IMG/VR virus record: IMGVR_UViG_2563366883_000015
From: a virus
Lineage: Duplodnaviria > Heunggongvirae > Uroviricota > Caudoviricetes
Strand: one strand, 5' to 3'
DNA: 19,651 bases
The stretch's first letter is position 1. Every line of letters starts with the position of its first letter. A program made the position numbers and the translations under genes. Under the pieces are notes generated by a model. That model saw nothing but the letters and a program-made list of their open reading frames with translations. It did no database searches and was not told the origin of the DNA. Shown piece by piece: positions 55 to 18,698 of the stretch.

Positions 55-639
55 TTACTCCCTGACAGGGTTCGTAGGCCACTCAATATCAGGTGCAGTT
101 GATGTATCAACACGGTTCAGCAACACCCGATACTTTTTCCAGGCTTCCAGCAATGAGGTTTCTTCCTCCGTTGCGATTTCCAGATCCACAGCATCCTGAA
201 GTGGCGCAATATGCTCACTGGCTACCTGCATCAGGCTGTTTTTTGTTTCTTCCGCCTCTCGGATCCGGAACAGTTTTTCTGCTTCTGCATCTTTCACCCA
301 GGCTGTGCCGTTCCACTTCTGAAACTCCCCTTCCGGCGATAACCAGGTAACATTTTCCGGTAACGGACCGAGTTCAGAAATAAATAACGCGTCCCCTGAA
401 GCTACGTCATAAACCGTTTTACCCCGATGGTCTTCAACGAGATGCCACGATGCCTCATCACTGTTGAAAACAGCCACGAAGCCTGCCGGAATATCTGGCG
501 GTGCAATATCGGTACTGTTTGCTGGCAGACCTGTATGAGGCGGAATATATGCATCACCTTCACCAATAAATTCATTAGTTCCGGCCAGCAGATTATAAAT
601 TTTTATGGTCCGTGGTTGTTCACTCATTCTGAATGCCAT
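55..639 (-). CDS. tfa: Tail fibre assembly protein Tfa (lambda Tfa-like chaperone)
   Basis: 194-aa ORF beginning [24 protein letters not shown]..., recalled as near-identical to lambda Tfa. Start ATG overlaps the stf stop (TAATG). Confidence 0.9.
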
Positions 640-1202
640 TATGCAAGCCTCACAATGTAGTTAAATGCGATGTTTTTGACGGTGTTTTCCGCGTTACCAG
701 CAGCGTTAACGGTGATGGTGTGTCCATGTGAGCCAATCGCAACCGAGTGCGTATGAGCACCAATACCGACAGTATGTGCGTGTGCACCTGCGCTTGCAGC
801 AGTGCCGGACAGTGAGTGGGTATGTGCGCCAGCAGATGATGTTGCATAGTTTTGATTATGCACAACAGACAATCTTGTTGATGCACTACCAGCACCGGAG
901 TTAGCACTAGCCGTGTTCACGTTGGCTAGTGAGTGTGTGTGTGCTCCAGCCGAGTTTGTAGAGCCGCTCACACTGTGTGTATGTGCCCCGGTGTTATTCG
1001 TGGATTTAGTGCCGTAATCAAACGACGATGTGGTTTTCGTCCCCAAATCCGTACTGGATGCGCTGGCGCTGTGGGTGTGCGATTTAATGCCGTCCTGTTC
1101 CTGAGATAATACGGCTCGACCACTGGCAGGTTTGCCCTTAATCGTCCAGCCACGCATACTCGCACCGAAAATGTCAGCCAGCTGCTTTTTGTTGACTTCC
1201 AT
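639..1202 (-). CDS. Side tail fibre protein, C-terminal receptor-binding tip only (N-terminally truncated Stf homologue)
   Basis: 187 aa ending ...[31 protein letters not shown] with repeated (G)AHTHS HxH motifs typical of the lambda Stf / T4 gp37 distal tip. Only about a quarter of full Stf length. Confidence 0.7.
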
Positions 1203-1284: not shown

Positions 1285-1427
1285 TTCAGGAGGTATTTTA
1301 AATAAAAACATTAAGTTACGACGAAGAAGAACAGAAACGCCTTAAACCGGAAAATTTTCATAAATAGCGAAAACCCGCGAGGTCGCCGCCCCGTAACCTG
1401 TCGGATCGCCGGAAAGGACCCACAAAA

Positions 1428-1442
1428 TGATAATAATTATCA
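1428..1442. promoter_or_regulatory. Fur-box-like 7-1-7 palindrome TGATAATAATTATCA
   Basis: Exact match to the 7-1-7 inverted-repeat form of the Fur box (TGATAATnATTATCA), ~150 bp upstream of ylcI. AT-rich context, so a chance match is possible. Confidence 0.3.
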
Positions 1443-1590
1443 TCTACATGTCACAACGTGCATCTACGCCATCAAACCACGTCAAATAATCAATTATGAC
1501 GCAGGTATCGTATTAATTGATCTGCATCAACTTAACGTAAAAACAACTTCAGACAATACAAATCAGCGACACTGAATACGGGGCAACCTC

Positions 1591-1785
1591 ATGTCAACTA
1601 AGAACAGAACCCGCAGAACAACAACCCGCAACATCCGCTTTCCTAACCAAATGATTGAACAAATTAACATCGCTCTTGAGCAAAAAGGGTCCGGGAATTT
1701 CTCAGCCTGGGTCATTGAAGCCTGCCGTCGGAGGCTAACGTCAGAAAAGAGAGCATATACATCAATTAAAAGTGATGAAGAATGA
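1591..1785 (+). CDS. ylcI: DLP12-type small prophage protein YlcI (DUF3950-like)
   Basis: 64-aa ORF MSTKNRTRRTTTRNIRFPNQMIEQINIALEQKGSGNF... in the position and orientation expected beside ybcW/ybcV/bor. Confidence 0.7.
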   Translation: MSTKNRTRRTTTRNIRFPNQMIEQINIALEQKGSGNFSAWVIEACRRRLTSEKRAYTSIKSDEE

Positions 1786-2852: not shown

Positions 2853-3142
2853 ATCATAACGTCCGGTTTCTTCCGTGTCAGCACCGGGGTGTTGGCATAA
2901 TACAATACATGTACGCGCTAAACCCTGTGTGCATCGTTTTTAATTATTCCCGGACACTCCCGCAGAGAAGTTCCCCGTCAGGGCTGTGGACATAGTTAAT
3001 CCGGGAATACAATGACGATTCATCGCACCTGGCATACATTAATAAATATTAACAATATGAAATTTCAACTCATTGTTTAGGGTTTGTTTAATTTTCTACA
3101 CATACGATTCTGCGAACTTCAAAAAGCATCGGGAATAACACC

Positions 3143-5226: not shown

Positions 5227-6324
5227 ATGAAAAAATTAACAGTGGCAATTTCTGCTGTAGCTGCATCAGTACTGATGGCGATGTCTGCTCAGGCAGCTGA
5301 AATTTATAATAAAGACAGTAACAAGCTGGATCTGTACGGGAAAGTTAATGCCAAGCACTACTTTTCCTCTAACGATGCAGATGATGGTGATACTACTTAT
5401 GTTCGTCTGGGCTTCAAAGGCGAAACCCAAATCAACGATCAGCTGACTGGTTTCGGTCAGTGGGAATATGAATTCAAAGGCAACCGCGCTGAATCTCAAG
5501 GTTCCTCCAAAGACAAAACCCGTCTTGCATTTGCAGGCCTGAAATTCGGTGACTACGGCTCAATCGATTACGGCCGTAACTACGGTGTAGCATACGACAT
5601 CGGTGCGTGGACTGACGTTCTGCCAGAATTCGGTGGCGATACCTGGACCCAAACAGATGTGTTCATGACTGGTCGCACCACTGGTGTTGCAACCTATCGT
5701 AACAACGACTTCTTTGGTCTGGTTGATGGTCTGAACTTTGCTGCTCAGTACCAAGGCAAAAACGATCGTAGCGATTTCGATAACTACACCGAAGGTAACG
5801 GTGATGGCTTCGGTTTCTCTGCTACCTATGAATACGAAGGATTCGGTATCGGTGCAACTTATGCGAAATCTGATCGTACCGACACTCAAGTTAATGCAGG
5901 GAAAGTTCTTCCTGAAGTATTTGCTTCCGGTAAAAATGCAGAAGTTTGGGCCGCAGGTCTGAAATATGACGCTAACAACATTTACCTGGCCACTACCTAT
6001 TCTGAAACCCAGAATATGACTGTATTTGCTGATCACTTCGTTGCTAATAAAGCTCAAAACTTCGAAGCTGTTGCACAATATCAGTTCGATTTCGGTCTGC
6101 GTCCGTCCGTTGCTTACCTGCAATCTAAAGGTAAGGATCTTGGAGTATGGGGCGATCAGGACTTAGTCAAATATGTTGATGTAGGTGCAACCTATTACTT
6201 CAACAAAAATATGTCTACTTTCGTTGATTACAAAATCAACCTGCTTGACAAAAATGACTTCACTAAAGCACTCGGTGTAAGCACTGATGACATCGTTGCT
6301 GTAGGTCTGGTTTACCAGTTCTAA
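5227..6324 (+). CDS. nmpC: Prophage-encoded OmpC/OmpF-family general porin (NmpC/Lc-like)
   Basis: 365 aa with signal peptide [25 protein letters not shown] and porin C-terminus ...VAVGLVYQF. Antisense to the late operon between Q and S, as nmpC is in DLP12. Preceded by ~540 bp of AT-rich DNA. Confidence 0.9.
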
Positions 6325-6332
6325 TCTGATTA

Positions 6333-6374
6333 CGAAAAAGATATGTTGCGGGAGGCGTTGCCTCCCCAACATAT
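6333..6374 (-). terminator. Rho-independent terminator on the minus strand ~140 nt downstream of Q (tR'-like)
   Basis: Minus strand: ATATGTTGGGGAGG-CAACG-CCTCCCGCAACATAT followed by CTTTTTCG. Confidence 0.45.
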
Positions 6375-6451
6375 AAGTGGCTCCCTCAAGCCACTTCCTT
6401 TAGGAGCACAACCTTGCTTCTAACTATATAAACCTTCTGTTATATATTACC

Positions 6452-6487
6452 CTTTATTTTTGGGGGCGTTGCAACGCCCCATTTTTA
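6452..6487 (+). terminator. Rho-independent terminator between the convergent porin and Q genes
   Basis: 18-bp perfect palindrome GGGGCGTTGCAACGCCCC (6463-6480) followed by ATTTTTAAT on the plus strand, preceded by TTTATTTTT. Confidence 0.55.
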
Positions 6488-6513
6488 ATAACTTTCAGTA
6501 AACAATTGGCATA

Positions 6514-6897
6514 TTAATTAGAGTTATTAACAACGATATCCATCTCTAACCGGATATCTAATGCCATTAACATCCCTTCAATTATGCCCTCAGCCTTCTG
6601 TAACCTTTTCCCGATATAACCATCAGAGCAGCAATGCTTACCTGCCAGTGACATGAATGTCATACCGACTACATAATAATCTACTAATAAATCGTGCAAA
6701 TCGCTGTTGTTCTTTTTCAGACGGGCCATGCACCCGCAAATGATCATCGCGTCATCGTCACAACATTGCGGGCGAGATTTTACTTTTGAAGGAATTAATC
6801 CCTTAAAACCGGCGGCAATGGACGACCAGGTCACATCTTCATGATTATTAGCCGCCCACGCTCCCCAACGTTCAAGAACCATCTGAATATCACGCAT
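6514..6897 (-). CDS. quuD: Late-gene antiterminator Q (QuuD / phage 82-21 type)
   Basis: 127 aa from ATG 6897 ([24 protein letters not shown]...), GGAG 7 nt upstream. Cys-rich region [16 protein letters not shown]. Sits immediately upstream of the lysis cassette. Confidence 0.85.
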
Positions 6898-6914
6898 TAA
6901 CTTTCTCCACAAAA

Positions 6915-7910
6915 TTAGGCCAGCACACCAATCGCCAGTGCGCGATCGATAAAACGAAATATCAGCTCCAGCTGGGAGCCATACTTCTCTTCAAATGCCA
7001 CGGTATCCGCATGCAGTTCGTCGTGGTGTTTTCTGCACAAAGGCAGCACAAAAAGGTCATGCGCTTTTGTACCCATTCCACCCTGACCATGGCCTATCAG
7101 ATGATGCGGATCATCAGCTGGCTTTCCACAACATGCACACGGCTGCGTCTTAACCCAGCGCGTGTACTGTTCATTAACCCAGCGACGACGTTTGGGGCGT
7201 AACATAAAAGACTCCGGCGACTCCGGATCCACTTTCAGCGCCAGCACCTTTTTCGCTTTATCCTGGATAATGCTGGTGGCAGGAACCGAAGGCACAAGGT
7301 CACTTTCCCGGGTGACAGACGGCAAAACAGACTTCGGTAATCTCAGTGCCTTACGGGCTGCGCTTTCCGGTAAGGCATCCGCCAGGTCATTACGAACCAG
7401 CCACCAGCACAGTTCCGGCATTGTCACGGCATGGTTATCATTAAAATCGAGATCCCGACGGACTACAGACAACACCCAATGGGCACAGTTATCCGTTGCC
7501 ATTGATTCCAGCCGCTCCGTGAACTGATCACGTAACTGATTATCGCAGTGCCAGCACAGACGGATTGCGCCCGGCGCGTGTCGCATTGTGGTCATGTTCT
7601 CGCTGTGCCAGTCGGAATGAGGCCACTGGCAGCCTTTTTCACGAAGTAACCAGCTTTCAAGACATTCCACCCCACCAGCACGACGAATCACTGCCTCATT
7701 ACGGAACACGGCCCGAACGGCAGGATCATCCGCCAGCGGTTGTGATGCCGCGGGAACGGCACCACTGGCGAAAGATGAATAATGCTCCGGCTCAGGCTCC
7801 AGCAGTACACGCCCCTGCATAAACAGGGGCATCAGCTCTGAACCGGGCCTGAACAATACGATCCCCATACGCGGGGCAATTTCAGGGGTCAGTAGTGCTC
7901 TCACGGTCAC
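6915..7910 (-). CDS. DUF968-family nin-region protein with C-terminal Cys/His (HNH-like) motif
   Basis: 331 aa. C-terminus [43 protein letters not shown]. Apparent GTG start at 7910, 1 nt after the KilA-N stop. Confidence 0.75.
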
Positions 7911-7911
7911 C

Positions 7912-8709
7912 TCAATGAACGGTATCGAGCAGCTTTAACAGCTCAGGGAATCGGGATTCGAAGAAATGCGGCTGCGTCTCGCGCGGATTTGCGGGACTGG
8001 TGATGTTCTTGCCGAACATGCAGCCTTTCGCTGTCAGCGACCAGAATTTTTTGATGTTGTTAATCGCGGTACGGCTGTATCGTTCGCGCTGCTCGACGAT
8101 CCCCAGCTTCACCATCTGGTGATATGCCTGATTAGCTGTCAGGCGGATACCATACTGCTTCAGCAGTGCACTCAGTGACAGCGTGGGACGGCTTGAGCCA
8201 TCAGGCGCGTCAGCAGGAGCATCAATGGCATAGCGCGGTGCCAGATTCGGTAAGCCAACAGCCTCCTGGAGTTTCTGACAGGCACCAAGCACTGAAGAGT
8301 TAGACAGGTTTAACTCCCGGCGCATAAAGTCCAGCAGAATCACGCCAGCCTGCATCTTGTCAGCAGCCTGCCCGGATAATTTTTCCGATGCGCTGGTTAC
8401 CATATCGAAAGTACGGATCACCTTCAGATGGAATGACGGGCTGATCCACATTGCATAGGCATACACCAGTTCTTTGCAGACATACGTCCCCTGGTTATTT
8501 CCGCCACGAATAACGTTAACTGGCTCTATATTGACCGAGTTGCAAATCTGCAACTCGCTTATTAAACGTTCAGTTTGCTCATTGCGGAGCCAGAATGCAG
8601 GCTTATGCTTATCCAGAGAACCGGCAGCCCTGTGCAGATCGTTCAGGCTGTAACGCCCATAAGCATCACGACGAACTTCAATACCATCAATGACCATCAG
8701 ATTATTCAT
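7912..8709 (-). CDS. KilA-N domain protein (Bro/antirepressor-like)
   Basis: N-terminus MNNLMVIDGIEVRRDAYGRYSLNDLHRAAG...KPAFWLRN is KilA-N-like. Start placed at ATG 8709 with AGGAG 9 nt upstream. The ORF track extends to 8742. Confidence 0.75.
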   Translation of the reverse strand: MNNLMVIDGIEVRRDAYGRYSLNDLHRAAGSLDKHKPAFWLRNEQTERLISELQICNSVNIEPVNVIRGGNNQGTYVCKELVYAYAMWISPSFHLKVIRTFDMVTSASEKLSGQAADKMQAGVILLDFMRRELNLSNSSVLGACQKLQEAVGLPNLAPRYAIDAPADAPDGSSRPTLSLSALLKQYGIRLTANQAYHQMVKLGIVEQRERYSRTAINNIKKFWSLTAKGCMFGKNITSPANPRETQPHFFESRFPELLKLLDTVH

Positions 8710-8728
8710 ACTTCGTTTCTCCTCTTGA

Positions 8729-9118
8729 TCAGGCGGCTGCACCCGCCGTTTTCTCGTACTTACTGATAGTGATCTCGACCTTCCCTTCCGGGATAACCGG
8801 TCCCCACTCCACCAGCATTCTTTTCACCTGGCTGTCGTCTTCCCACACACCCGCGTGGGTCAGGGCGTCAAACAGCGCCTTGTTATAGTTGTCCAGATCG
8901 CGGATCCGGTTATCCGGAGGAAACAACACGATCTCCACTGAAGCAGGTGCCGACGTTGGTTTCGGCAGACGACGTAACTGCTCAACTATTGCTGTGCACG
9001 CCGCACTCTGGAATTTTCGCCCCGCCGCGCTTATCAGGCTCTTACCAGCAAATGCCCCTTTGTTGGGGTGTCGCCAGTAGGTGTTCACGCTGGGTGGAAA
9101 AGGCAGAATCAGCTTCAT
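8729..9118 (-). CDS. rusA: RusA-family Holliday junction resolvase
   Basis: 129 aa MKLILPFPPSVNTYWRH...IRDLDNYNKALFDALTHAGVWEDDSQV matches the RusA pattern. Start ATG overlaps the upstream stop (ATGA). Sequence differs from K-12 RusA. Confidence 0.85.
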   Translation of the reverse strand: MKLILPFPPSVNTYWRHPNKGAFAGKSLISAAGRKFQSAACTAIVEQLRRLPKPTSAPASVEIVLFPPDNRIRDLDNYNKALFDALTHAGVWEDDSQVKRMLVEWGPVIPEGKVEITISKYEKTAGAAA

Positions 9119-9441
9119 ACTTTCAGCCCCCTCTCATGTAACCAGTGGGCTGCACGCAGCCTGGCGTTTTCCTCACCAGCAAGCAGTGCGCGGATAATCC
9201 CGGCCACCTCGCTGTCGTCGTCCTTCACCGCGGTATGAAGCGTGATGCCCCGGGCCACGCCACGCTTTATCGTGATGACGCCTTTTTTCTCCAGTGCGCG
9301 AAGATGCTCCACCGCTGCATTCACTGAACGGTATCCCAGCATGGTAGCCACCTCCTGATTGGTTGGCGGGAAGCCACGTTCTTTCTGGTAAGAAATCAGC
9401 ATATCCAGCACCTGCTGCTGGCATTGAGTTAACGTCGTCAT
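9115..9441 (-). CDS. LexA N-terminal DNA-binding-domain protein lacking the S24 peptidase domain
   Basis: 108 aa from ATG 9441: MTTLTQCQQQVLDMLISYQKERGFPPTNQEVATMLGYRSVNAAVEHLRALEKKGVITIKRGVARGITL parallels the LexA winged-helix domain. No Ser/Lys protease region follows. Confidence 0.7.
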   Translation of the reverse strand: MTTLTQCQQQVLDMLISYQKERGFPPTNQEVATMLGYRSVNAAVEHLRALEKKGVITIKRGVARGITLHTAVKDDDSEVAGIIRALLAGEENARLRAAHWLHERGLKV

Positions 9442-9929
9442 TAAGCCCCCACGTAATTCCCTGACAGATACCACTCTTCACCCGATACAGCGCGCTTGCT
9501 GCTTTTCCGTAAACACCGCTCACGACGCGCAAGAAAATTGTTTCGCTCTTGCTGGGAGTGGCTTTCACGGAATGCCGCCATCCACACCGTTGCAGCACGA
9601 CGGTATAAGCCCCTGGACTCCAGTTCTTCCGCCTGGCGGGTCAGGCACAAAATCACCCGGGGATCGTTAGTGCCGACATAGAAATTGCGCACAGGTCTGG
9701 ATTCACGAACTGGTTGCGGTTCCGGCTCCTGCGGTATCTCAGTCAGCCGCGGGAAATGTCTGCGTGTATCCCCTTCACAACGGTGAGCCACACGCCCACT
9801 CTGACGTAACTTGCTTGCTGACTGCAGAACGCGCTGTCGTGAGTAACCTGCAAAAGCATCCGCAATGTCTCCGGAAGTACACCCCGGATGGGCTTCAATG
9901 AATTTCTGAACGTCATTCAAAAGACTCAT
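9441..9929 (-). CDS. Putative transcriptional regulator with C-terminal PerC/Pch-like motif
   Basis: C-terminal segment AEELESRGLYRRAATVWMAAF...NNFLARRERCLRK resembles the PerC-family core; ~90 aa of extra N-terminal sequence. ATG 9929 with AGGGGG upstream. Confidence 0.55.
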   Translation of the reverse strand: MSLLNDVQKFIEAHPGCTSGDIADAFAGYSRQRVLQSASKLRQSGRVAHRCEGDTRRHFPRLTEIPQEPEPQPVRESRPVRNFYVGTNDPRVILCLTRQAEELESRGLYRRAATVWMAAFRESHSQQERNNFLARRERCLRKSSKRAVSGEEWYLSGNYVGA

Positions 9930-9931
9930 GA

Positions 9932-10873
9932 TCACCCCCTGAATCCTGCCGGGATCTGGCTGTAGTCCACGTTGTCGTAACTGGCTTTGAAGTACGGGTC
10001 TTCGCGTTTTTCGGTGTACGTGCTGACGGACGGCGATAAGCGCAGGGAAAGCTCATCCCATTTTTCCCGCAGCTTCGACGGGCTGAGCACGTTACGGCAC
10101 CAGAACGGATCGCGACTGACGCGGCTGTACATCTCGCAGATTTGTTTATGAGTACGACCATCCTGCACACACATCAGGCGAATTTCGTTTGCCCAGGCTG
10201 TCCAGTTCGGTTCTTTGGGACGAACCACCTCGCCGTCACATTCGGCGGCATGCTCGTACAGGGCGATGATTTTTTTCCAGAGCCACTGTGCGCAGGTCAA
10301 ATCATCCTGCGTCCCCCACTGGCGCTTTTTAGGGCTGAATACAACCGCATCAGGATGGCGAGTTAAAAAATCCTGTTCAGCCGTCTGCGTGTCCGGTTGC
10401 GAAGCGTCCGGACGAGAAGTTTTTTTATCTGACGGATCATGTTTTGATTTTACTGACGGATCCCCACCAGATTCTGACGGGTGAAAACCCGCTTTTTTGC
10501 CAGATTTCGACGCATCAAATTTTGACGGGTCAGATTTTGATGCGTCAGATTTTGACGGGTCAGAATCTGACAGTTGAGAAAATGCCGCTGCCTGAAGCTT
10601 CGCAACGTTAAGCTGATAAACATTCGACGCATTGCGGTTACCCTGGCGACGCGCCCTACGCGTTAACCAGCCTTCTGCTTCCAGCCGTGCGATAGCCGTT
10701 CTGACGGTACTCATCCCCGCGCCAATCTGGCGGGCAATGGTTTCAATTGATGGCCAGCACACACCTTCGTCATTACTGAAATCAGCCAGGCGGGCCATAA
10801 TTGCCACGCTGGATAATTTCATGCCTGATGCAGCGCAACCATCCCATACATAGCCGGTTAATTTAGTGCTCAT
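9932..10873 (-). CDS. Phage replication initiator (N-terminal HTH domain, low-complexity linker, conserved phage replication C-terminus)
   Basis: 313 aa. N-terminal winged-HTH-like region ...SIETIARQIGAGMSTVRTAIARLEAEGWL, linker SDSDPSKSDASKSDPSKFDASKS encoded by DNA repeats, Trp/Cys-rich C-terminus. GAGG RBS. Confidence 0.8.
   Translation of the reverse strand: MSTKLTGYVWDGCAASGMKLSSVAIMARLADFSNDEGVCWPSIETIARQIGAGMSTVRTAIARLEAEGWLTRRARRQGNRNASNVYQLNVAKLQAAAFSQLSDSDPSKSDASKSDPSKFDASKSGKKAGFHPSESGGDPSVKSKHDPSDKKTSRPDASQPDTQTAEQDFLTRHPDAVVFSPKKRQWGTQDDLTCAQWLWKKIIALYEHAAECDGEVVRPKEPNWTAWANEIRLMCVQDGRTHKQICEMYSRVSRDPFWCRNVLSPSKLREKWDELSLRLSPSVSTYTEKREDPYFKASYDNVDYSQIPAGFRG
10445..10576. repeat. 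Iteron-like array of ~7 imperfect 15-16-bp direct repeats (consensus approx. CAGATTTTGACGGGT) inside the replication initiator gene; candidate ori
   Basis: Copies at approx. 10445, 10468, 10501, 10517, 10532, 10547 and 10562; the last four are contiguous. Same layout as lambda ori iterons within gene O. Confidence 0.5.
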
Positions 10874-10882
10874 GACCGACCT

Positions 10883-11221
10883 CTATTTCCCTGAATTTAC
10901 GACGAAACTGTTCGAGCGGGCTGAAGCACTCATGCTCATAGCCTTCGCGGAGGTAGATAACACGTTGTGTTTCCGGCTCCCAACGAATGACTCTGACGGG
11001 CACTCCGTAGTGATCTTTGAACCAGCGGTTAACTTGTCGCAAAGGACTGTCTCCTTCTGCCGGTTGAAATCACCCACAGCCCACTCTGCAAAGCTGTGGG
11101 TTACAATTTCCCTGTCACCTGGTACATTTACTGCATAGCAATACTCCACCTTCGCTTTTCCACCCGGTACAGGAAGCGCAATCAGTTGCGAGCGACGGTA
11201 GTGTGTTGTTAAACTGTTCAT
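10883..11221 (-). CDS. Hypothetical early-region protein
   Basis: 112-aa ORF whose start overlaps the upstream gene stop (ATGA coupling). C-terminal third is low-complexity, so it may be frameshifted or shorter. No family recognised. Confidence 0.35.
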
Positions 11222-11769
11222 GCGTTAGTTTCTCCACAGTCACGACACGCCACGGCGCCCGGAGCTGCACACTCGCGGGCGTCACTACTTTCTGAAACGC
11301 AAAAGATTTTGTAGACCAGTGCTGCATGCTCCTGCAGCTTCGAAATTGAGAGGTACAGCTCATCGTTAATTGCTGTCTTCTCATGCGGTTCCACTACACC
11401 GTCTTCAATTGCTGAACGAATCTGTTTTGAATAACTGCCGATCTGTTCAATGACTTCCAGCAGGCGTTGGTTGATATCGGCGTTGTCCACATCCTCGACA
11501 TCAGGAAGAGACACAAAGACGCCATTTGCAGACTGCGCCACAGCGTCAGCAATGAAGTGAGTTCCACCAGCACGTTGCAAAATCATTGCCCATCCCAGCG
11601 GGAAAATCTGATCGCCATCGGCACGAAGGCGGTTAAATAATGCGTTCTCTGTTACATCCAGCCAGTCAGCAGCTTCAGCGTCCCCCCCCGGCAACGCTGC
11701 GATAGTTTTTCTGACAGCTTTCACGTACCACTCAGGCTGTTTTTCTACTTTCCAGTGATGCTTACCCAC
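11218..11769 (-). CDS. Early regulatory protein, CII/YdaT-like (assignment tentative)
   Basis: 183-aa ORF at the position expected for the cII-equivalent upstream of replication genes; Cys cluster at the C-terminus. Family assignment is from memory and tentative. Confidence 0.5.
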
Positions 11770-11881
11770 GGTTCACCTCCTGTTCCTGTGGTTTAAACCC
11801 ATTCTGGTTTTGGCTAGATTGAAAACGTGCCGGATAAAGAATCTGCATTTCGCTGACTTCACCCTTAAAAAAATTGGCTAA

Positions 11882-12238
11882 ACGTTCTGCAAGCTCGATA
11901 GATGGAATCTGCTCCAGCCTCTCATGCCGCAAACCAAGAGCATTGCGGTCAAATGTACGAATGTTGCTGCGCAGGCTTATTTAACAATGCGTCTGGAAGC
12001 CAGTGCCGTTTCTGGTCAGGCGATGGTGTCGGACAATCAGGATTTAGGTTTTATTGTCGCCGATCAGAACGATACGCCGATCACGCCTAACGATCTCAAT
12101 AGCGTTATTCCTTTCCGTCTGGATGCAGCTGCGGCAGCCAATGTCACACTTCGCGCCTGGCCTATCAGTATTACCGGTCAAAAACCGACCGAAGCGCCGT
12201 TTAGCGCGCTGGGGTATTTACGCGTCGATTATCAATGA
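11882..12238 (+). pseudogene. sfmH: sfmH fimbrial adhesin gene, 3' fragment only (5' end replaced by phage DNA)
   Basis: Frame encodes a fimbrial-subunit C-terminal strand (...LGYLRVDYQ) directly upstream of sfmF. In-frame stop at 11879. The N-terminal two thirds of a ~325-aa adhesin are absent. Confidence 0.6.
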
Positions 12239-12248
12239 GGTACGGAGA

Positions 12249-12764
12249 ATGAGAAGAGTATTCTTTAGCTGTTTCTGCGGGTTACTGTGGAGTTCCAGTG
12301 GATGGGCAGCTGACCCTTTAGGAACGATTAATATCAATTTGCACGGTAACGTTGTTGATTTCTCCTGTACCGTAAACACAGCGGATATTGATAAGACGGT
12401 AGATTTAGGCAGATGGCCTACGACACAACTACTGAACGCTGGCGATACCACGGCACTCGTCCCTTTTAGCCTGCGGCTGGAGGGATGTCCTCCGGGTTCA
12501 GTTGCGATTTTATTTACGGGAACGCCGGCATCTGATGCCAACCTGCTGGCTCTGGATGATCCCGCAATGGCACAAACCGTCGCCATCGAATTACGTAATA
12601 GCGATCGCTCCCGGCTCGCACTGGGGGAGGCGAGCCCGACTGAGGAAGTTGATGCAAATGGCAATGTCACACTAAACTTTTTTGCCAATTATCGAGCGTT
12701 AGCCAGCGGTGTTCGGCCAGGTGTGGCGAAAGCGGATGCGATATTTATGATCAATTATAATTAA
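12249..12764 (+). CDS. sfmF: Type 1-like fimbrial minor subunit SfmF
   Basis: 171 aa from ATG 12249 with signal peptide MRRVFFSCFCGLLWSSSGWA/ADP and fimbrial C-terminus; GAGG 8 nt upstream. The ORF track starts further upstream at 12054. Confidence 0.85.
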   Translation: MRRVFFSCFCGLLWSSSGWAADPLGTININLHGNVVDFSCTVNTADIDKTVDLGRWPTTQLLNAGDTTALVPFSLRLEGCPPGSVAILFTGTPASDANLLALDDPAMAQTVAIELRNSDRSRLALGEASPTEEVDANGNVTLNFFANYRALASGVRPGVAKADAIFMINYN

Positions 12765-12766
12765 TA

Positions 12767-13399
12767 TTATATTAATTCATATAATTTGGCGTAGTCGATG
12801 AGCTCTACAATTGAATGCAAACCTAGCTTGCCATAAATATTAGATTTATGCGCGCTAACTGTTTTATTGCTAAGTAATAACTTATCGGCAATTTCTTTAT
12901 TAGATAATCCGCTGACCAGATAACGTAATATCGTCACTTCACGATTAGATAGCACAGTGATCGTTGAACTATTCGTACTACATTTATTGCTTTTTATATA
13001 GTTGAGCGTTTCGCTGGGAAAAAAAGTGTATCCGGAGAGGATCATCTGAACGGCATGAAAAATATCATTCTGATCATTGCATTTACTGACAAAACCGTTA
13101 GCACCAGCTTGTATCGCTCTGCCAGCATAAAAGCATTCTGATTTCGATGATAAAAATAATACTTTCACTGTGCTCTGGATTTGTTTGATCCTTTTCAGGA
13201 AGGTAAAACCGTCTGTTCCGGGCAAGTCTATATCCATAATGATTAAATCAACAGGACGGGTTCGGAGATAATCGATGGTTATGCGGTAATCATCCGTTTT
13301 CAGGACAATCTGCAATTCACTGTTTTTTTGCAACAGAACTTCAATAGACATTCTGATGATAGGATGAGTATCCATAATGATCACCGACGTTGGTTTCAT
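12767..13399 (-). CDS. fimZ: LuxR/NarL-family response regulator FimZ
   Basis: 210 aa from ATG 13399 (MKPTSVIIMDTHPIIRMSIEVLL...): receiver domain plus C-terminal LuxR HTH, in the expected position between sfmF and argU. Confidence 0.9.
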   Translation of the reverse strand: MKPTSVIIMDTHPIIRMSIEVLLQKNSELQIVLKTDDYRITIDYLRTRPVDLIIMDIDLPGTDGFTFLKRIKQIQSTVKVLFLSSKSECFYAGRAIQAGANGFVSKCNDQNDIFHAVQMILSGYTFFPSETLNYIKSNKCSTNSSTITVLSNREVTILRYLVSGLSNKEIADKLLLSNKTVSAHKSNIYGKLGLHSIVELIDYAKLYELI

Positions 13400-13582
13400 A
13401 GTTACCAGTCTCATAGGAGCGGACAATTTTCCGTTAGGGCGGTAAATTGTACTTTGATACATGAAAATACGGGTTTTCTTGATTCAGACGCGCAGCGGTG
13501 TGCGTTTGTTTGCCGCTATAGCGAAATAAATCAGAAAATCAGACGCGGTCGTTCACTTGTTCAGCAACCAGATCAAAAGCCA

Positions 13583-13610
13583 TTGACTCAGCAAGGGTTG
13601 ACCGTATAAT
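13583..13610 (+). promoter_or_regulatory. Sigma70 promoter for the tRNA-Arg gene
   Basis: TTGACT (13583-13588), 16-bp spacer, TATAAT (13605-13610), ~30 bp upstream of the tRNA 5' end. Confidence 0.6.
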
Positions 13611-13641
13611 TCACGCGATTACACCGCATTGCGGTATCAAC

Positions 13642-13718
13642 GCGCCCTTAGCTCAGTTGGATAGAGCAACGACCTTCTAAGTCGTGGGCCGCAGGTTCGA
13701 ATCCTGCAGGGCGCGCCA
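13642..13718 (+). tRNA. argU: tRNA-Arg (anticodon UCU), encoded CCA end; prophage attachment site
   Basis: 77 nt GCGCCCTTAGCTCAGTTGGATAGAGCAACGACCTTCTAAGTCGTGGGCCGCAGGTTCGAATCCTGCAGGGCGCGCCA with clear cloverleaf; anticodon loop CTTCTAA. Confidence 0.95.
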
Positions 13719-13733
13719 TTACAATTCAATCAG

Positions 13734-14897
13734 TTACGCCTTCTTTATATCCTCCATAATTCCAGAGTGGGACATATTTGGGACATTATCACCAAAAATG
13801 TCGTCTATTTTCCTCGCATGCTCTGTCAAATGATTAGGCGCAAGGTGAGCATACCTACGAACCATTTCTATGGACTCCCATCCGCCCATTTCCTGAAGCA
13901 CTGATAATGGGACGCCTGACTGAATCAGCCAGCTTGCCCAGGTGTGTCTGAGGTCATGGAAACGGAAATCTTCAATTCCTGCACGACGACAAGCTGATAG
14001 CCATGATGTCTTGCTGTCGATGCGCATCTTCCTGACCGCAGGCGTTGATGTTCCATCTGCTCGCTTAGCCGCCTTGGTATGTACAAACACCCATTTGTGA
14101 TGCTTGCCTATTTGATCACGCAACACTTTACAGGCGGTATCGTTCAGCGCCACACCAATGGCGCGGTTTGATTTGCTCTCTTCTGGATTCACCCAGGCAA
14201 CTCGTCGCTGCATGTCGATTTGTTGCCATTCCAGATTTATGATGTTCGACTTTCTCAGACCAGTTGCCAGCGCAAACTTGACGACAGATTTCAGTGGTTC
14301 GGGGCACTCATCAATAAGGCGTTTTGCTTCCTCCTTTTCCAGCCATCTGACTCGCTTGTTTCTGACCGCTGGTATCTTGATGACAGGCGCTTTTTCCAGC
14401 CACTTCCAGTCGCGTTCTGCAGCACGGAGAATGGCCTTTATCATGGCAAGATGCTTTGCCTTTGTCTGAGTTGATACTGGCTTTGGTTCATAAACAGGCG
14501 GTTCTTTACCTTTCCTGATGGCGGCCCGAACTTTCTGTTTCCATATTTCTTTCGTCTTTCTGTTATGCATTCTGCTTACAGCAGAGTAAATCTTTGCCTC
14601 CGAGATATCTTTAAGCCTTATACCCTCAAAATGTTCAAGCCAGAACTCAATCCGGCTTTTATCTGAATCGAGAGATTTTTTATCAGCCTTTTCCTCAAGC
14701 CATCTTAGGCAGGCCTCTTCAAAAGTGACATCAGGTAAATCCCCTAGCTTTTCTACTCGCCAGAGTTCTGCTTTTCGCTTGTCGTGCAACTCCTGAGCTT
14801 GCCGCTTGTCCTTTGTGCCAAGAGATTCCTTAATTCGTTTCCCGCCCGGGAGCGAATACGAGGCATACCATATTTCATTTCTGCGGAAGAGTGACAT
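13734..14897 (-). CDS. intD: Tyrosine site-specific integrase (DLP12 IntD-like)
   Basis: 387 aa [35 protein letters not shown]... with catalytic motifs ...HDLRHTWAS... and ...VRRYAHL...; GAGGA RBS. Confidence 0.95.
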
Positions 14898-15124
14898 TTT
14901 CTTTCCTCTGTTATGCCATCACCCGCGCTCACCTGGACAGTATGCAGCGGAGACTGAAGCGCCGCAATGCAGGCTTGCCGTGTTGTGAGGTAAGGAGATT
15001 TTGGCTTGGTTGGATCTTTACGTGTTGCCTGTAGGCGGCCTGTTCGTATCCAGTTGGTGGCGGTTGGTCTGGATATCTGAAGAAACTGACAGGCCTCATC
15101 GAGTGTGAGGCTGTATGGCTCCAT
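14753..15124 (-). CDS. xisD: Excisionase-like (Xis/AlpA-type HTH) protein; true stop may be earlier
   Basis: Start ATG 15124 ([35 protein letters not shown]...). The open frame overlaps the int start by ~145 nt. The ORF track extends upstream to 15208. Confidence 0.55.
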
Positions 15125-15429
15125 TATTTCACCTCTTGCTGTGTCATTGTTGAAAAATGGATAACAGCTCGTTGCTGCCAGACGATCCAACCGAGAGTCA
15201 TATCCCATGCCATGTATTCGTTATCGCCGTTTTTTGCTCTCCGACGATCTACTAAGTCACCGAAACGCTTTTCCATGAATAATTCATAGGCTTCGCGTTC
15301 ATCTGGCTCTACTTCCAGAGATACGAGTGCGATTTCATAAGCACGGCGCTCAATATCGTCTCGAACCTCTAGGCTGCTGATTCGTTCTTTGATTTCTTTA
15401 ATCAGTTCTTTATTGGTAAATGTGGTCAT
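15124..15429 (-). CDS. yfdT: Small early-left protein, YfdT-like
   Basis: 101-aa ORF MTTFTNKELIKEIKERISSLEVRDD..., translationally coupled to the upstream gene (TAATG). Length and position match my recollection of the yfdP-Q-R-S-T cluster. Confidence 0.5.
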   Translation of the reverse strand: MTTFTNKELIKEIKERISSLEVRDDIERRAYEIALVSLEVEPDEREAYELFMEKRFGDLVDRRRAKNGDNEYMAWDMTLGWIVWQQRAVIHFSTMTQQEVK

Positions 15430-15791
15430 TATGCTCCAGCCTCCGGTGCTTTTGGCATTACTGCCCAGTGAGTGATATTGACGTTTTCAAGGTCCCCGAC
15501 CTGAAATGTCCACTGCCATTCTCCGGTTTCTTTTTGTCCCCAGGTGTACCAGAGAGAACGCCAGCCAATCAGCCAGCCTTCTCCGTTAGCATCAAATAAC
15601 AGAACACTTTCATTTGCTGGTGGCAGTTCAGCTGACACTGGTATTATTTTGTTTTCCAGTGCCGCACATTTAGCTTCAAGCGCGTCGAATTTACGTAACA
15701 GGTACTCAGCATTTGTTTCATTCACTTTCAGATCTCGCGGTACACATTTCCCGCGAAGAAACCCTTCCATTTCGAAAACATTCATGCGCAT
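15429..15791 (-). CDS. yfdS: Early-left protein, YfdS-like (Trp-rich C-terminus, possibly DUF551-like)
   Basis: 120 aa MRMNVFEMEGFLRGK...WLIGWRSLWYTWGQKETGEWQWTF...ITHWAVMP; GGAG 9 nt upstream of ATG 15791. Confidence 0.55.
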   Translation of the reverse strand: MRMNVFEMEGFLRGKCVPRDLKVNETNAEYLLRKFDALEAKCAALENKIIPVSAELPPANESVLLFDANGEGWLIGWRSLWYTWGQKETGEWQWTFQVGDLENVNITHWAVMPKAPEAGA

Positions 15792-16318
15792 TTGCGTAAC
15801 TCCGATAAATCGTTAAAACGTTCCATAAACATCCCGTAGGCATGACCCGGTGCCAGTGGAATCACGTTGAACATCTCTGTTGCCGGGATGCCTTCCAGTA
15901 CAGGCCAGAAAGAGCCATCATCAAGCCCGAGATCGCGGCGTTCGGTTGCCAGCATGATGAGATCGGCATATTTCACGGGTGTACTCATAACTGGGGGTAA
16001 CCCGTATTTCTCACGGATTACGGCGTCTATTTTTTCTTCCATCCGTTTATAGTCAGGAAGAAGGCGTTTCAGTGGTGCGGGAATGTCCTGGCAATACGCT
16101 TCTGTTGCATCATGCATTAACGCTTCAAAAGCAAATTCCTGCGGCACCAGCTGGCTGCAAAGAACCGCATGTTGGGCGACGCTGTAGAAGTGCGAAAGAT
16201 GACCGGCAAAGCGACAGATATTTGAAAGGGAAACCGCGATATCGTTAATATCGATGTCGTCTTTATTTATCTTGTCATAATAAAAATGCTTCCCGGAAAA
16301 AGTTTTAATAAATGACAT
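15782..16318 (-). CDS. yfdR: HD-domain phosphohydrolase (YfdR-like)
   Basis: 178 aa from ATG 16318 (MSFIKTFSGKHFYYDKINKDD...). HD motifs ...VAQHAV... and ...LMHDATEAY...; GGAGAA RBS. The ORF track extends to 16345. Confidence 0.8.
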   Translation of the reverse strand: MSFIKTFSGKHFYYDKINKDDIDINDIAVSLSNICRFAGHLSHFYSVAQHAVLCSQLVPQEFAFEALMHDATEAYCQDIPAPLKRLLPDYKRMEEKIDAVIREKYGLPPVMSTPVKYADLIMLATERRDLGLDDGSFWPVLEGIPATEMFNVIPLAPGHAYGMFMERFNDLSELRKCA

Positions 16319-16411
16319 TTTGTTCTCCACGTATATGCACTGCACCGCGCTGAATTCTGGTAAAAGGAAGCCCTCACCATCCGGTGATTATTGAGTTAAT
16401 TACGTTTCCAT

Positions 16412-16433
16412 AAATGCCCCCGCAGGGGCATTT
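16412..16433 (-). terminator. GC-rich hairpin downstream of yfdQ (weak terminator candidate)
   Basis: AAATGCCCC-CGCA-GGGGCATTT perfect 9-bp stem 13 nt after the yfdQ stop; only a weak T-run follows. Confidence 0.3.
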
Positions 16434-16445
16434 GCAGTAATGAAA

Positions 16446-17270
16446 TCAGGCGGTGAAAGTACCAATAAAGGTTTCTACTTTGCTGTCTTTGAATTTCTCA
16501 ACAAGCAGATCACGAAATTCGTTAGCCATTTCTTCCTGCACCGCTTCCAGCTGAATAATGCGCAGAACCAGTACAGGACGATCGCCAGTGATAATGCTGA
16601 GGCGTAATTTAAACGGACGTTCTTTCAGACCTTCAAACGGAACGCATTTAAATTCAAATGCCACTGGCATAATGTCTTTGGTCTTCGCTTCGACAGACTC
16701 CATCAGGGAGCGTTTGCCGCTGAAGTCATTATCTTCAAAATCAGCGGTCTGGTTTGCTTCAATCGTGATTTTACGGACTGCCGCAGCCGCTTTTGTTGCT
16801 TGAATGGCGTCACCATTAGCATCAAAGCCCACAAGGTAGTCGGCCCAGTCTTCGATCCATTCTGCCAGTGACTTCTGGGAGTTACGCTCGCCGTTAACAG
16901 ACAACAGAGCAGAGAACGGTGCTGTCTTTTTCAGTTTGAGAGTGGCAGTGTTATCTGCGTGACCTGGTTCATCAATAGTACCCAGGTTAAGCACACTGAC
17001 GGCTCGCATATTATCGGCATCGATAAAGCAGCGGGTGCCTTCATCTGCAAGATCTTTAGAATAACGGGTAAAGTCATCGATGCTGGCAGTGGAAAGCGCA
17101 CCACGGAAACGGAAGCGATTTAAATTAAATTTTTCCAGATCATGAATGCGGAAATTCTCAGGCAATGCCACAGCATCGGCACCAATCTTACTGATAATTT
17201 CATTAACACCCTGAGCAGAAATAAGGGCATGGATTTGATTAATTGCGGTTGCGTCTAAGTTCTGAGACAT
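16446..17270 (-). CDS. yfdQ: YfdQ-like prophage protein (DUF2303-like)
   Basis: 274 aa [30 protein letters not shown]... with GTGAGGA RBS; ordered yfdP-yfdQ-yfdR as in the CPS-53 cluster. Confidence 0.75.
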
Positions 17271-17335
17271 AATAAGTCCTCACTATATAAAAATATTCAG
17301 TGATGAGAGAAATAATCAGTTTATTAAAAACGATA

Positions 17336-17698: not shown

Positions 17699-17739
17699 TT
17701 TGCTGCTCCTCATCATATCGACCCTGCAAGGTCGGTTGG

Positions 17740-18100: not shown

Positions 18101-18168
18101 CTGGTTATTCCCCAACAACAAGGATTCGGTTAATCTGGATATCCCCAACAACAATAAGAGTATTCAAT
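18101..18168 (+). repeat. Two tandem 34-bp imperfect direct repeats (core CTGGWTAT(T)CCCCAACAACAA) ending at the start of the downstream ORF
   Basis: R1 18101-18134 CTGGTTATTCCCCAACAACAAGGATTCGGTTAAT; R2 18135-18168 CTGGATATCCCCAACAACAATAAGAGTATTCAAT. An AGGATTC...CTGG motif also occurs at 18032-18047. Confidence 0.6.
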
Positions 18169-18684: not shown

Positions 18685-18698
18685 ATTACTACTGTTGT

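What the first reader, a model, noticed from the sequence alone, without database searches (positions are those of the whole stretch)
1428..1442. Perfect Fur-box-like palindrome in a prophage intergenic region, beside a tail-fibre tip carrying HxH repeats
TGATAATAATTATCA matches the 7-1-7 Fur-box consensus exactly and lies in the divergent region between the truncated stf tip gene and ylcI. Iron-dependent regulation of prophage accessory genes would be unusual. The neighbouring Stf tip fragment carries multiple HxH motifs of the kind that coordinate metal ions in T4-like fibre tips. The link is speculative and the site could be chance in AT-rich DNA.
Basis: partly seen in the sequence, partly recalled or inferred. 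Interest (0 to 1): 0.4.

Follow-up and report, generated by a model that had tools for sequence, protein, structure and literature searches.

The report
Known Fur site beside lambda cosQ
The palindrome is a real, previously reported binding site for the iron sensor Fur; it is not a regulator of the neighbouring genes but a conserved piece of the lambda-type DNA-packaging site (cos), lying a few bases from cosQ, and its role there is unknown.

Summary
TGATAATAATTATCA is at 1428-1442 as described. The "intergenic region" is a lambda-type cos site on the minus strand: cosQ 1415-1421, cohesive-end sequence 1380-1391, cosB, and the nu1 start at 1202. The "stf tip gene" is a deletion fusion of Nu1 codons 1-15 to a T4 gp37-like HxH fibre tip, so the Fur box and the iron-binding tip are neighbours only because of a deletion. 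The identical K-12 DLP12 sequence is the published "nohB" Fur site (FURTA 1994; 25.3 bits, third strongest cluster in K-12). The Qin/lambda variant ("nohA") shifts with Fur in vitro. My own Fur matrix, built from 14 chromosomal operators, gives 22.5 bits (operators 17.9-27.2). In a cosQ-anchored survey, 15 of 19 upstream contexts from the viral scan, plus phi80, N15 and a Kosakonia prophage, keep a 17-29-bit Fur operator whose 15-bp core ends 4-7 bp before cosQ. Five phage contexts and both cos sites of the satellite EcCICFT073 lack it. ChIP-exo shows Fur on the homologous site in CFT073 but not in K-12. RNA-seq shows no derepression of ylcI, nohD or nohA in fur mutants. Verdict: the Fur site is real and already known, regulation of flanking genes is unsupported, and the cos association appears unreported.

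The parts
1428..1442 (.). Perfect 7-1-7 palindrome TGATAATAATTATCA (core of the Fur operator)
   Evidence: Identical to K-12 DLP12, where its centre coincides with the published nohB Fur site.
1426..1444 (.). Full 19-bp Fur operator (AATGATAATAATTATCATC)
   Evidence: De novo Fur PWM from 14 K-12 operators scores it 22.5 bits; training operators score 17.9-27.2; next best in the window is 15.5.
1415..1421 (-). cosQ heptamer GGGTCCT (packaging-termination subsite), 6 bp from the palindrome
   Evidence: cosQ is annotated at the homologous position in phage 434 and phi80.
1380..1391 (-). 12-nt cohesive-end sequence GGGCGGCGACCT (core of cosN); lambda bp 1 = window 1391
   Evidence: Alignment with lambda and K-12 DLP12.
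1343..1374 (-). I2 segment between cosN and cosB (lambda bp about 18-49)
   Evidence: Collinear alignment with lambda; I2 is defined in PMC4856287.
1225..1342 (-). cosB (R3 about 1327-1342, I1, R2, R1), the terminase small-subunit and IHF binding region
   Evidence: Collinear alignment with lambda; R3 is given as lambda bp 50-65 in PMC9026076.
1155..1202 (-). Remnant of nu1 (start codon plus about 15 codons, [15 protein letters not shown])
   Evidence: matches Nu1 structures 1J9I and 7LW0; nu1 homology ends near 1155.
639..1154 (-). T4 gp37-like side-tail-fibre tip with seven HxH motifs, fused in frame to the nu1 remnant
   Evidence: PDB 2XGF, E = 2.8e-56, query residues 15-187; Pfam Phage_fiber.
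55..639 (-). Tail fibre assembly gene (tfa)
   Evidence: Pfam Caudo_TAP, E = 3e-45.
1591..1785 (+). ylcI (DUF3950, YlcI/YnfO family), divergent from nu1
   Evidence: Pfam DUF3950, E = 2e-20; annotated as ylcI in related genomes.
1427..1454 (-). Sigma-70-like promoter match (-35 GTGACA, 16 nt spacer, -10 TATCAT) pointing towards cosQ and nu1; probably incidental
   Evidence: 10 of 12 matches. The scan found 4 such sites against 2.8 expected, and the -35 is not conserved in other contexts.

Best explanation
The palindrome is the core of a genuine high-affinity operator for the iron-loaded repressor Fur. It is not a control element of the flanking genes. It is a conserved component of the lambda-type cos module, and the 15-bp core ends 4-7 bp upstream of cosQ (6 bp here). 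The window is a DLP12-type defective prophage that has kept cosQ, cosN and cosB but lost terminase and all head and tail genes through a deletion. That deletion fused nu1 codon 15 to the tip of stf, which is the only reason the Fur box sits beside an iron-binding fibre tip. Shown: the site's identity as a Fur site, its membership of the cos module, its recurrence in independent contexts with Fur-like base preferences across all 19 bp, in vivo occupancy of a homologous site in CFT073, and the absence of derepression of neighbouring genes in fur mutants. Inferred: in intact phages Fur binding here is under selection. The role I think most likely, at roughly 30%, is a non-essential host-factor site acting in cis on cos, in the way IHF acts at I1. 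In this role Fur bound against cosQ would help the incoming terminase recognise or pause at the termination site. In this defective prophage the site is most likely a relic that can bind or titrate Fur without any transcriptional output.
For: Sequence and context. Published Fur data: nohB at 25.3 bits (third strongest K-12 cluster, FURTA reference); nohA at 22.3 bits, 233 bp upstream of the start codon, gel shift with 150 nM Fur, and in vivo selected fragment. Both coordinates map exactly onto the palindrome centres. An independent de novo PWM gives 22.5 bits against 17.9-27.2 for 14 validated operators. Survey: 15 of 19 upstream contexts have an 11-14 of 14 match whose core ends 4-7 bp before cosQ. 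The background rate is 3e-4 per position, giving a binomial P of 1e-40, or 4e-22 against an AT-rich background; matches of 13 or more occur 91 times beside cosQ and 4 times elsewhere in 1.19 Mb. All 18 element-bearing contexts, including phi80, N15 and Kosakonia, score 17.3-28.8 bits, and contexts without the element score below 0. Conservation collapses just distal to the operator, and the conserved T-tract corresponds to the outer AAT of the 19-bp Fur motif. A CFT073 ChIP-exo peak under iron-replete conditions lies on the homologous element 5 bp from cosQ. The element is absent from the non-homologous cos sites of HK97 and P2. Deletion fusion.
Against: No Fur ChIP-exo peak is called at the DLP12 or Qin sites in MG1655 or W3110, so occupancy of this exact sequence on the chromosome is unproven. 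Against a packaging role: the isolated phages 4A7 and IdasGreatGrand, three other contexts, and both cos sites of the PICI EcCICFT073 (which lambda and phi80 package) have cosQ and cosN without the operator. fur is not reported among lambda host-dependency genes in the Keio screen. The centre-to-cosQ distance varies from 12 to 15 bp, so there is no fixed helical phase. Conservation could partly reflect tight linkage to an essential site rather than selection. The contexts were sampled with an exact cosQ-proximal pattern, which biases the sample towards E. coli relatives.
Confidence: 0.8

Rival explanations
1. The Fur box is the operator of a Fur-repressed promoter, so ylcI and/or the nu1'-stf fusion are switched on when iron is scarce.
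For: The sequence is a strong Fur box. A sigma-70-like promoter overlapping it points towards nu1. Chen et al. chose nohA as a predicted Fur-controlled promoter. Vassinova and Kozyrev listed nohA among 'Fur-regulated loci'.
Against: None of nohD, ybcW, ybcV, nohA (nohQ) or ydfO is derepressed in the MG1655 fur deletion (log2 fold changes -0.05 to -0.3; ybcV not significant at near-zero counts); ylcI is not listed for MG1655. In W3110 ylcI, ynfO and their neighbours go down, not up, at counts of about 2-11. There is no ChIP-exo peak in K-12. No promoter match was found on the ylcI strand, and the box lies 149 bp upstream of the ylcI ATG. Only 3 of 17 contexts have a ylcI homologue, and the -35 is not conserved. 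Fur boxes resemble -10 hexamers by composition.
Confidence: 0.08
2. The operator is a Fur decoy. During lytic replication, hundreds of phage genomes each carry a high-affinity operator and titrate Fur. This derepresses host iron uptake late in infection, as a natural Fur titration assay, and might supply iron for iron-dependent virion parts such as HxH fibre tips. Its position beside cosQ only reflects safe linkage to an essential site.
For: The DLP12 fragment was originally isolated because it titrates Fur from a multicopy plasmid (FURTA reference). Operator strength is maintained across contexts. A decoy needs no adjacent regulated gene, which matches. The fibre tip of this phage lineage is of the iron-binding gp37 type.
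Against: It does not explain why the operator core always ends 4-7 bp from cosQ. One operator per genome binds few Fur molecules relative to the cellular pool (my own knowledge). No data on the Fur regulon during lambda infection were found. Whether the operator co-occurs with HxH fibres was not tested.
Confidence: 0.15
3. The operator is a transcriptional insulator. Bound Fur blocks or dampens transcription that runs from upstream lysis or moron genes into cos and the terminase genes in uninduced lysogens.
For: In PICI EcCICFT073 cos1 a canonical intrinsic terminator occupies the same position, 2 bp from cosQ. In most contexts the nearest upstream gene is co-directional with nu1.
Against: The support is a single analogy. 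Fur is not known to act as an efficient roadblock, and its action would depend on iron. Five phage contexts have neither a terminator nor an operator. The palindrome itself is not a terminator: the RNA hairpin has z = -1.5, is AU-rich, and has no free U-run.
Confidence: 0.1
4. The palindrome is bound by a phage protein rather than by Fur. Candidates are the neighbouring YlcI acting as an autoregulator, or terminase recognising an extended cosQ.
For: It is a palindrome beside a small gene of unknown function. The phi80 GenBank record labels the whole 55-bp stretch 'cosQ; aka R4 region'. TerL and cosQ are conserved across the phages that carry it.
Against: YlcI homologues are present in only 3 of 17 contexts. 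DUF3950 genes also occur in Stx2 phages, which match only the ylcI coding part of the query and not the cos part. The conserved positions reproduce the chromosomal Fur matrix over all 19 bp, and Fur binding has been shown experimentally. The YlcI model is of low confidence and no solved homologue was found. As I recall it, saturation mutagenesis limited cosQ to 7 bp (Wieczorek and Feiss 2001; paper not held).
Confidence: 0.04
5. The site is a chance match in AT-rich DNA with no binding and no function.
For: The local DNA is AT-rich, and no K-12 ChIP-exo peak is called.
Against: Shuffles give a mean of 0.07 matches with 2 or fewer mismatches. The site scores 22.5 bits. The element recurs in 18 contexts with P far below 1e-20. 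Fur binding has been published for it and for its paralogue.
Confidence: 0.01

Closest known systems
The 'nohB' (nohD, DLP12) and 'nohA' (Qin) Fur binding sites of E. coli K-12 (Stojiljkovic et al. 1994 FURTA; Vassinova and Kozyrev 2000; Chen et al. 2007, PMC2189734)
   Same: It is the same element. The window is identical to K-12 DLP12 over the roughly 130 bp around the site, and the published coordinates fall on the palindrome centres. Published values are 25.3 and 22.3 bits, with a gel shift for nohA.
   Different: Those papers treat it as a promoter-proximal site of a Nu1-homologue gene. None of the text I could search places it in cos or next to cosQ. In this window nohD is reduced to 15 codons fused to stf.
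IHF site I1 in lambda cosB (a host DNA-bending protein site inside cos)
   Same: Both are binding sites for an abundant host site-specific DNA-binding protein, embedded in the lambda-type cos and conserved among lambda-like phages.
   Different: I1 lies between R3 and R2 and has a demonstrated role in packaging initiation. The Fur operator lies on the other side of cosN, against cosQ, and has no demonstrated role. It is missing from several functional cos sites.
cosQ / 'R4 region' of lambda-like phages (Cue and Feiss 1993; Wieczorek and Feiss 2001)
   Same: The operator is immediately adjacent and co-inherited. The phi80 record's 'cosQ; aka R4 region' feature spans it. Standard lambda cos clones starting at bp 48442-48446 include it.
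   Different: cosQ proper is the 7-bp GGGTCCT that is essential for termination. The operator is separate, separated from cosQ by a spacer of variable sequence and length, and dispensable in some phages and in PICIs.
Fur box at the stx1 promoter of Stx1-converting lambdoid phages (Calderwood and Mekalanos 1987; from my own knowledge)
   Same: Both are Fur operators carried by lambdoid prophages, so iron-linked elements in prophages are not unprecedented.
   Different: The stx1 box overlaps a promoter and represses a toxin gene. The cos-proximal operator has no gene shown to respond to it.

Membership tests
E. coli Fur operator (Fur box) | Match to the 7-1-7 / 19-bp consensus | tested here: met
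   14 of 14 specified positions of TGATAATnATTATCA match. The 19-mer AATGATAATAATTATCATC compares with the de novo consensus AATGATAATGATTATCAAT.
E. coli Fur operator (Fur box) | Matrix score within the range of experimentally validated operators | tested here: met
   22.5 bits against 17.9-27.2 for 14 operators. Published score is 25.3 bits, third strongest cluster in K-12.
E. coli Fur operator (Fur box) | Direct binding of purified Fur | not testable with these tools
   Literature only. A gel shift with 150 nM Fur was reported for the Qin (nohA) variant, which differs at the central base and a few flanking bases. The DLP12 version was FURTA-positive according to reference 1 of Chen et al..
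E. coli Fur operator (Fur box) | Occupancy in vivo on the chromosome | tested here: inconclusive
   No ChIP-exo peak in MG1655 or W3110. An iron-replete peak lies on the homologous pre-cosQ element in CFT073.
E. coli Fur operator (Fur box) | Fur- or iron-dependent transcription of an adjacent gene | tested here: not met
   Published fur-deletion versus wild-type RNA-seq shows no derepression of nohD, ybcW, ybcV, nohA or ydfO. W3110 shows decreases at very low counts, including ylcI.
Lambda-type cos site | cosQ heptamer GGGTCCT, with lambda's 22 bp separating it from the 12-nt cohesive-end sequence GGGCGGCGACCT | tested here: met
   window 1415-1421 and 1380-1391, with the same spacing as lambda.
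Lambda-type cos site | cosB with R3-I1-R2-R1 followed by nu1 | tested here: met
   96% mean column identity with lambda and K-12 DLP12 and no indels up to nu1 codon 15.
Lambda-type cos site | Cognate terminase encoded downstream (a functional packaging unit) | tested here: not met
   nu1 is truncated after about 15 codons and fused to stf, and there is no gpA. The cos site is a relic, although it could still be a substrate for a helper phage.
T4 gp37-type iron-binding fibre tip | Homology to the gp37 tip domain, with its series of HxH motifs | tested here: met
   2XGF, E = 2.8e-56, over residues 15-187. Seven HxH motifs are visible in the sequence.
T4 gp37-type iron-binding fibre tip | Bound iron ions | not testable with these tools
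   Inferred from the T4 structure (my own knowledge of Bartual et al. 2010).
Intrinsic terminator | GC-rich stem followed by a free U-run | tested here: not met
   Not called by the scan. The hairpin is AU-rich with z about -1.5, and the U's are paired within the stem.

The most novel reading that the evidence does not exclude
Lambda-type phages have recruited the host iron sensor to their chromosome end. A full Fur operator is kept under selection as an accessory subsite of cos, abutting cosQ. In that position bound Fur either assists termination of DNA packaging, as an architectural factor or brake, or makes replicating phage DNA a Fur decoy that reprograms host iron uptake. The Fur literature knows the site only as 'nohA/nohB', and the packaging literature I could search does not mention it.
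Probability: 0.35. Interest if true: 0.7.

Novelty: already known. Interest (0 to 1): 0.35.

Why it matters
The finding as stated, a Fur box in a DLP12-type prophage, adds nothing new. It is the nohB site known since 1994, and the suggested regulation of ylcI and the stf fragment is not borne out. The context is what may matter. One of the strongest Fur operators in the E. coli genome is part of the lambda cos module. It is retained in lambda, 434, phi80, N15, Stx1 phages and many uncultured relatives in at least 18 unrelated upstream contexts, and it is occupied by Fur in vivo in CFT073. If Fur binding there has a function, it would add a second host factor, after IHF, to the best-studied viral packaging site, or it would reveal a phage strategy for manipulating host iron homeostasis. 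Both ideas can be tested directly with existing lambda genetics. The result is also a caution for regulon annotation: strong, genuine transcription-factor sites in prophages may serve phage DNA transactions rather than gene regulation.

Tried and rejected
1. Chance match in AT-rich DNA: rejected.
2. RNA hairpin or intrinsic terminator formed by the palindrome plus T-run: rejected; z about -1.5, AU-rich stem, no free U-tract.
3. Operator for the neighbouring YlcI: unlikely; a homologue is present in only 3 of 17 contexts. No solved homologue was found, and the single-sequence AlphaFold model had pLDDT 60, so I did not run a fold search.
4. Conserved sigma-70 promoter into nu1: the match exists in this window, but the -35 is not conserved in other contexts, and Fur boxes resemble -10 elements anyway.
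5. IHF site: by eye there is no WATCAANNNNTTR match.
6. General property of cos phages: rejected; HK97 and P2 right ends have nothing comparable.
7. Requirement for cosQ-dependent termination: rejected; PICI EcCICFT073 cos1 and cos2 and phages 4A7 and IdasGreatGrand lack the operator.
8. The primary cosQ papers (PMC1461673, PMC47553) could not be read because they are not held.
9. Supplements of Chen 2007 and Beauchene 2015 are not held.
10. The genome-contig scan with the 17-base cosQ pattern returned mostly chance matches in GC-rich genomes and lambda spike-in contamination. Only 21 hits were real cos sites.
11. L048 looked like a possible satellite but turned out to be another deletion-bearing prophage.
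12. Whether the operator co-occurs with HxH-type fibres was not tested.

Full report
**Observation.** TGATAATAATTATCA is at window 1428-1442. It is a perfect 7-1-7 inverted repeat and the only match in the window with 2 or fewer mismatches; shuffles give a mean of 0.07. It lies between an ORF at 639-1202 on the minus strand and ylcI at 1591-1785 on the plus strand. The minus-strand ORF carries seven HxH motifs and aligns with the T4 gp37 receptor-binding tip (PDB 2XGF, E = 2.8e-56).

**What the region is.** The ORF at 639-1202 begins [15 protein letters not shown], the N-terminus of lambda terminase small subunit Nu1. PDB Nu1 chains match residues 1-26, and Pfam Phage_Nu1 matches below its threshold.

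- BLAST of 1150-1650 finds lambda, 434, HK629 and many lambdoid phages, with 'terminase subunit Nu1' and 'cosQ' annotated under the match.
- A three-way alignment with lambda and K-12 DLP12 shows 96% identity and no indels.
- On the minus strand the order is: palindrome (1442-1428), a 6-bp spacer, cosQ GGGTCCT (1421-1415), the 12-nt cohesive-end sequence GGGCGGCGACCT (1391-1380), I2, cosB (about 1342-1225), and the nu1 ATG (1202).
- nu1 homology stops near 1155, where gp37-like sequence begins.

The 'intergenic region' is therefore a lambda-type cos site. The 'truncated stf tip gene' is a deletion fusion that removed terminase and all head and tail genes. Related genomes show larger remnants and annotate ylcI, ybcW, ybcV, bor, rzpD, rrrD, essD, a porin and quuD, which is a DLP12-type defective prophage. 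In an intact phage of this type the whole set of head and tail genes lies between cos and the stf tip, so their adjacency here is an accident of deletion.

**It is a known Fur site.** Chen et al. 2007 (PMC2189734) scanned K-12 with an information-theory Fur model.

- They list 'nohB' (now nohD, DLP12) at 25.3 bits, the third strongest cluster in the genome, and cite the 1994 Fur titration assay.
- They list 'nohA' (Qin) at 22.3 bits, 233 bp upstream of the start codon. This site shifted with 150 nM Fur, and its fragment had been selected in vivo by Vassinova and Kozyrev.
- I fetched both K-12 loci. The palindrome centres are at 580601 and 1636600 in NC_000913.3. These equal the published 579824 and 1634624 plus the 777-bp and 1976-bp offsets between genome versions.
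- K-12 DLP12 is identical to the window around the site. Qin carries lambda's variant, TGATAATCATTATCA.

**Independent matrix test.** I took 14 promoter regions of classical Fur-repressed genes from K-12: fhuA, fepA-fes, fepD-entS, fepB-entC, gpmA, fiu, sufA, ydiE, cirA, mntH, exbB, yqjH, feoA and ryhB. I learned a 19-bp motif by expectation-maximisation without supplying a consensus. The result was AATGATAATGATTATCAAT, the classical Fur box. The best site in each training region scores 17.9-27.2 bits. Window 1426-1444 scores 22.5 bits, and the next best position in the 19.65 kb scores 15.5.

**Comparative survey.** I anchored on the cosQ-proximal sequence GGGTCCTTTCCGNNGATCC and collected 125 cos sites from IMG/VR and phage records. 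I then grouped them by the unrelated sequence 33-150 bp upstream of cosQ.

- Fifteen of 19 contexts carry an 11-14 of 14 match to the 7-1-7 consensus whose core ends 4-7 bp before cosQ.
- The per-position background for such a match is 3e-4, or 5e-3 in AT-rich 15-mers. This gives binomial P values of 1e-40 and 4e-22.
- Matches of 13 or more of 14 occur 91 times beside cosQ and 4 times elsewhere in 1.19 Mb.
- With the chromosomal Fur matrix, all 18 element-bearing contexts score 17.3-28.8 bits. These include phi80 (a perfect palindrome 5 bp from cosQ), N15 (CGATAACTATTATCG), a Kosakonia prophage and the CFT073 prophage. Contexts without the element score below zero.
- Conservation collapses just distal to the operator. 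The conserved T-run between the palindrome and cosQ corresponds to the outer AAT of the 19-bp Fur motif, so the conserved block is one complete Fur operator.
- The few strong hits elsewhere in these loci are one recurrent unrelated locus.
- HK97 and P2, whose cos sites are not homologous, have nothing comparable.

**In vivo data.** In the Fur pan-regulon study (Gao et al. 2023, PMC10164565) neither MG1655 nor W3110 has a ChIP-exo peak at the DLP12 or Qin cos. CFT073 peak P53 (1424699-1424711, iron-replete) lies on TGATAATTATTCTCG, 5 bp from the cosQ of another lambdoid prophage.

Fur-deletion versus wild-type RNA-seq from the same study gives:

| Strain | Genes | log2 fold change (fur deletion / wild type) |
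|---|---|---|
| MG1655 | nohD, ybcW, nohQ (nohA), ydfO | -0.05 to -0.3, not significant |
| MG1655 | ybcV | not significant, near-zero counts |
| W3110 | ylcI | -3.9 (p = 0.115) |
| W3110 | ybcW | -5.3 |
| W3110 | ybcV | -3.7 |
| W3110 | nohD | -2.8 |
| W3110 | ynfO | -5.1 |

The W3110 values are decreases and rest on counts of about 2-11. Nothing is derepressed, so classical Fur repression of the neighbouring genes is not supported.

**Rivals tested.**

- *ylcI control or a YlcI operator.* Only 3 of 17 contexts have a YlcI homologue upstream. In most contexts the nearest gene is co-directional with nu1.
- *Promoter.* A sigma-70-like match (-35 GTGACA, -10 TATCAT) overlaps the box and points towards nu1. 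Its -35 is not conserved, and Fur boxes resemble -10 hexamers.
- *Terminator or hairpin.* The hairpin is AU-rich with z about -1.5.
- *Requirement for packaging termination.* The phages 4A7 and IdasGreatGrand and three further contexts lack the operator. So do both cos sites of the satellite EcCICFT073 (-8.5 and -6.3 bits), which lambda and phi80 package. In cos1 an intrinsic terminator abuts cosQ at the same position.
- *Host-factor screen.* The Keio lambda host-dependency screen reports ihfA and ihfB but not fur.
- *Untested in standard constructs.* Standard lambda cos clones begin at bp 48442-48446 and so always include the operator. Its contribution has therefore not been separated out in those constructs.
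- *Literature.* No searchable paper mentions both Fur and cosQ.

**Mechanism.** The following are shown: the site is a strong Fur operator; it belongs to the cos module; it recurs with Fur-like base preferences in many contexts; and Fur occupies a homologue in vivo. The following are inferred: Fur binding there is selected in phages (I estimate 60-65%). Because the one constant partner is cosQ, with the operator core ending 4-7 bp away, my preferred role is a dispensable host-factor site acting on cos, analogous to IHF at I1. It might slow or position the incoming terminase (about 30%). Alternatives are a Fur decoy on replicating phage DNA (about 15%), transcriptional insulation (about 10%), and hitchhiking with an essential site without function (about 25%). 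In this defective prophage, which has no terminase, the site is most likely a relic with no transcriptional output.

**Comparison and novelty.** The element is the nohB/nohA Fur site, so the finding is already known. Iron-regulated elements in lambdoid prophages also have a precedent in the stx1 promoter (my own knowledge). What I did not find in the literature available to me is the recognition that this operator is part of cos and conserved next to cosQ.

**Limits.**

- The survey pattern biases the sample towards E. coli relatives.
- The contexts are not phylogenetically independent in a strict sense.
- The primary cosQ papers could not be read.
- Binding to this exact sequence on the chromosome is unproven.

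Noticed in passing
window 639-1202 (minus strand): The ORF is an in-frame deletion fusion of Nu1 codons 1-15 to a T4 gp37-like fibre tip. The whole head and tail region between nu1 and the 3' end of stf is missing. Related genomes keep larger remnants.
   Followed up: yes
window about 11920-19651: The block sfmH'-sfmF-fimZ-tRNA-Arg-intD-early genes-XRE repressor is inverted relative to the late-gene block, compared with strain NCTC9088 and K-12 DLP12. No complete genome covers 80% or more of 6000-19651 in one place. This could be a real inversion or an assembly join.
   Followed up: partly
window 3038-3056 and 12753-12771: These are weaker Fur-matrix hits: 14.8 bits about 90 bp upstream of bor, and 15.5 bits between sfmF and fimZ. 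In published RNA-seq borD is 2.3-fold lower in the MG1655 fur mutant (p = 5e-21), which is the opposite of derepression.
   Followed up: no
L052 4261-4285, L100 10885-10909, L109 4509-4533, L111 4757-4781: A recurrent strong Fur box (up to 24.7 bits, two overlapping registers) covers a 15-codon ORF (MKKYAQPIDNNYHFH), 2.8-3.9 kb from cos, in four lambdoid loci.
   Followed up: no
L258 11480-11530 and about 12339 (E. coli CFT073, PICI EcCICFT073): PICI cos1 has a canonical intrinsic terminator (GCCGGA-gaaa-TCCGGC-T7) 2 bp before cosQ, at the position where phages carry the Fur operator. cos2 has neither. The PICI also encodes a YlcI/YnfO-family protein.
   Followed up: partly
L135, L139, L149, L177, L181, L191, L203, L208, L219 (genome contigs): Lambda right-end sequence identical to wild-type lambda appears in assemblies of unrelated organisms (Oceanobacillus, Shewanella, Neobacillus, Leeuwenhoekiella, Raphidiopsis, Aeromicrobium, Alicyclobacillus and several MAGs). 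Several occurrences are at contig ends or on roughly 48.5-kb contigs. This is most likely spike-in or control DNA contamination.
   Followed up: no
window 1591-1785 (ylcI): YlcI (DUF3950) has a basic N-terminus followed by two predicted helices. From the sequence I guessed a ribbon-helix-helix DNA binder. The single-sequence AlphaFold model has pLDDT 60, and no solved homologue was found by sequence.
   Followed up: partly
Gao et al. 2023 supplementary data (W3110, DLP12 region): In the W3110 fur mutant appY drops from about 1140 to about 59 counts (log2 -4.1), and several DLP12 and Qin genes fall to zero. MG1655 shows no such effect. This is a strain-specific effect on the prophage region that I did not explain.
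   Followed up: no
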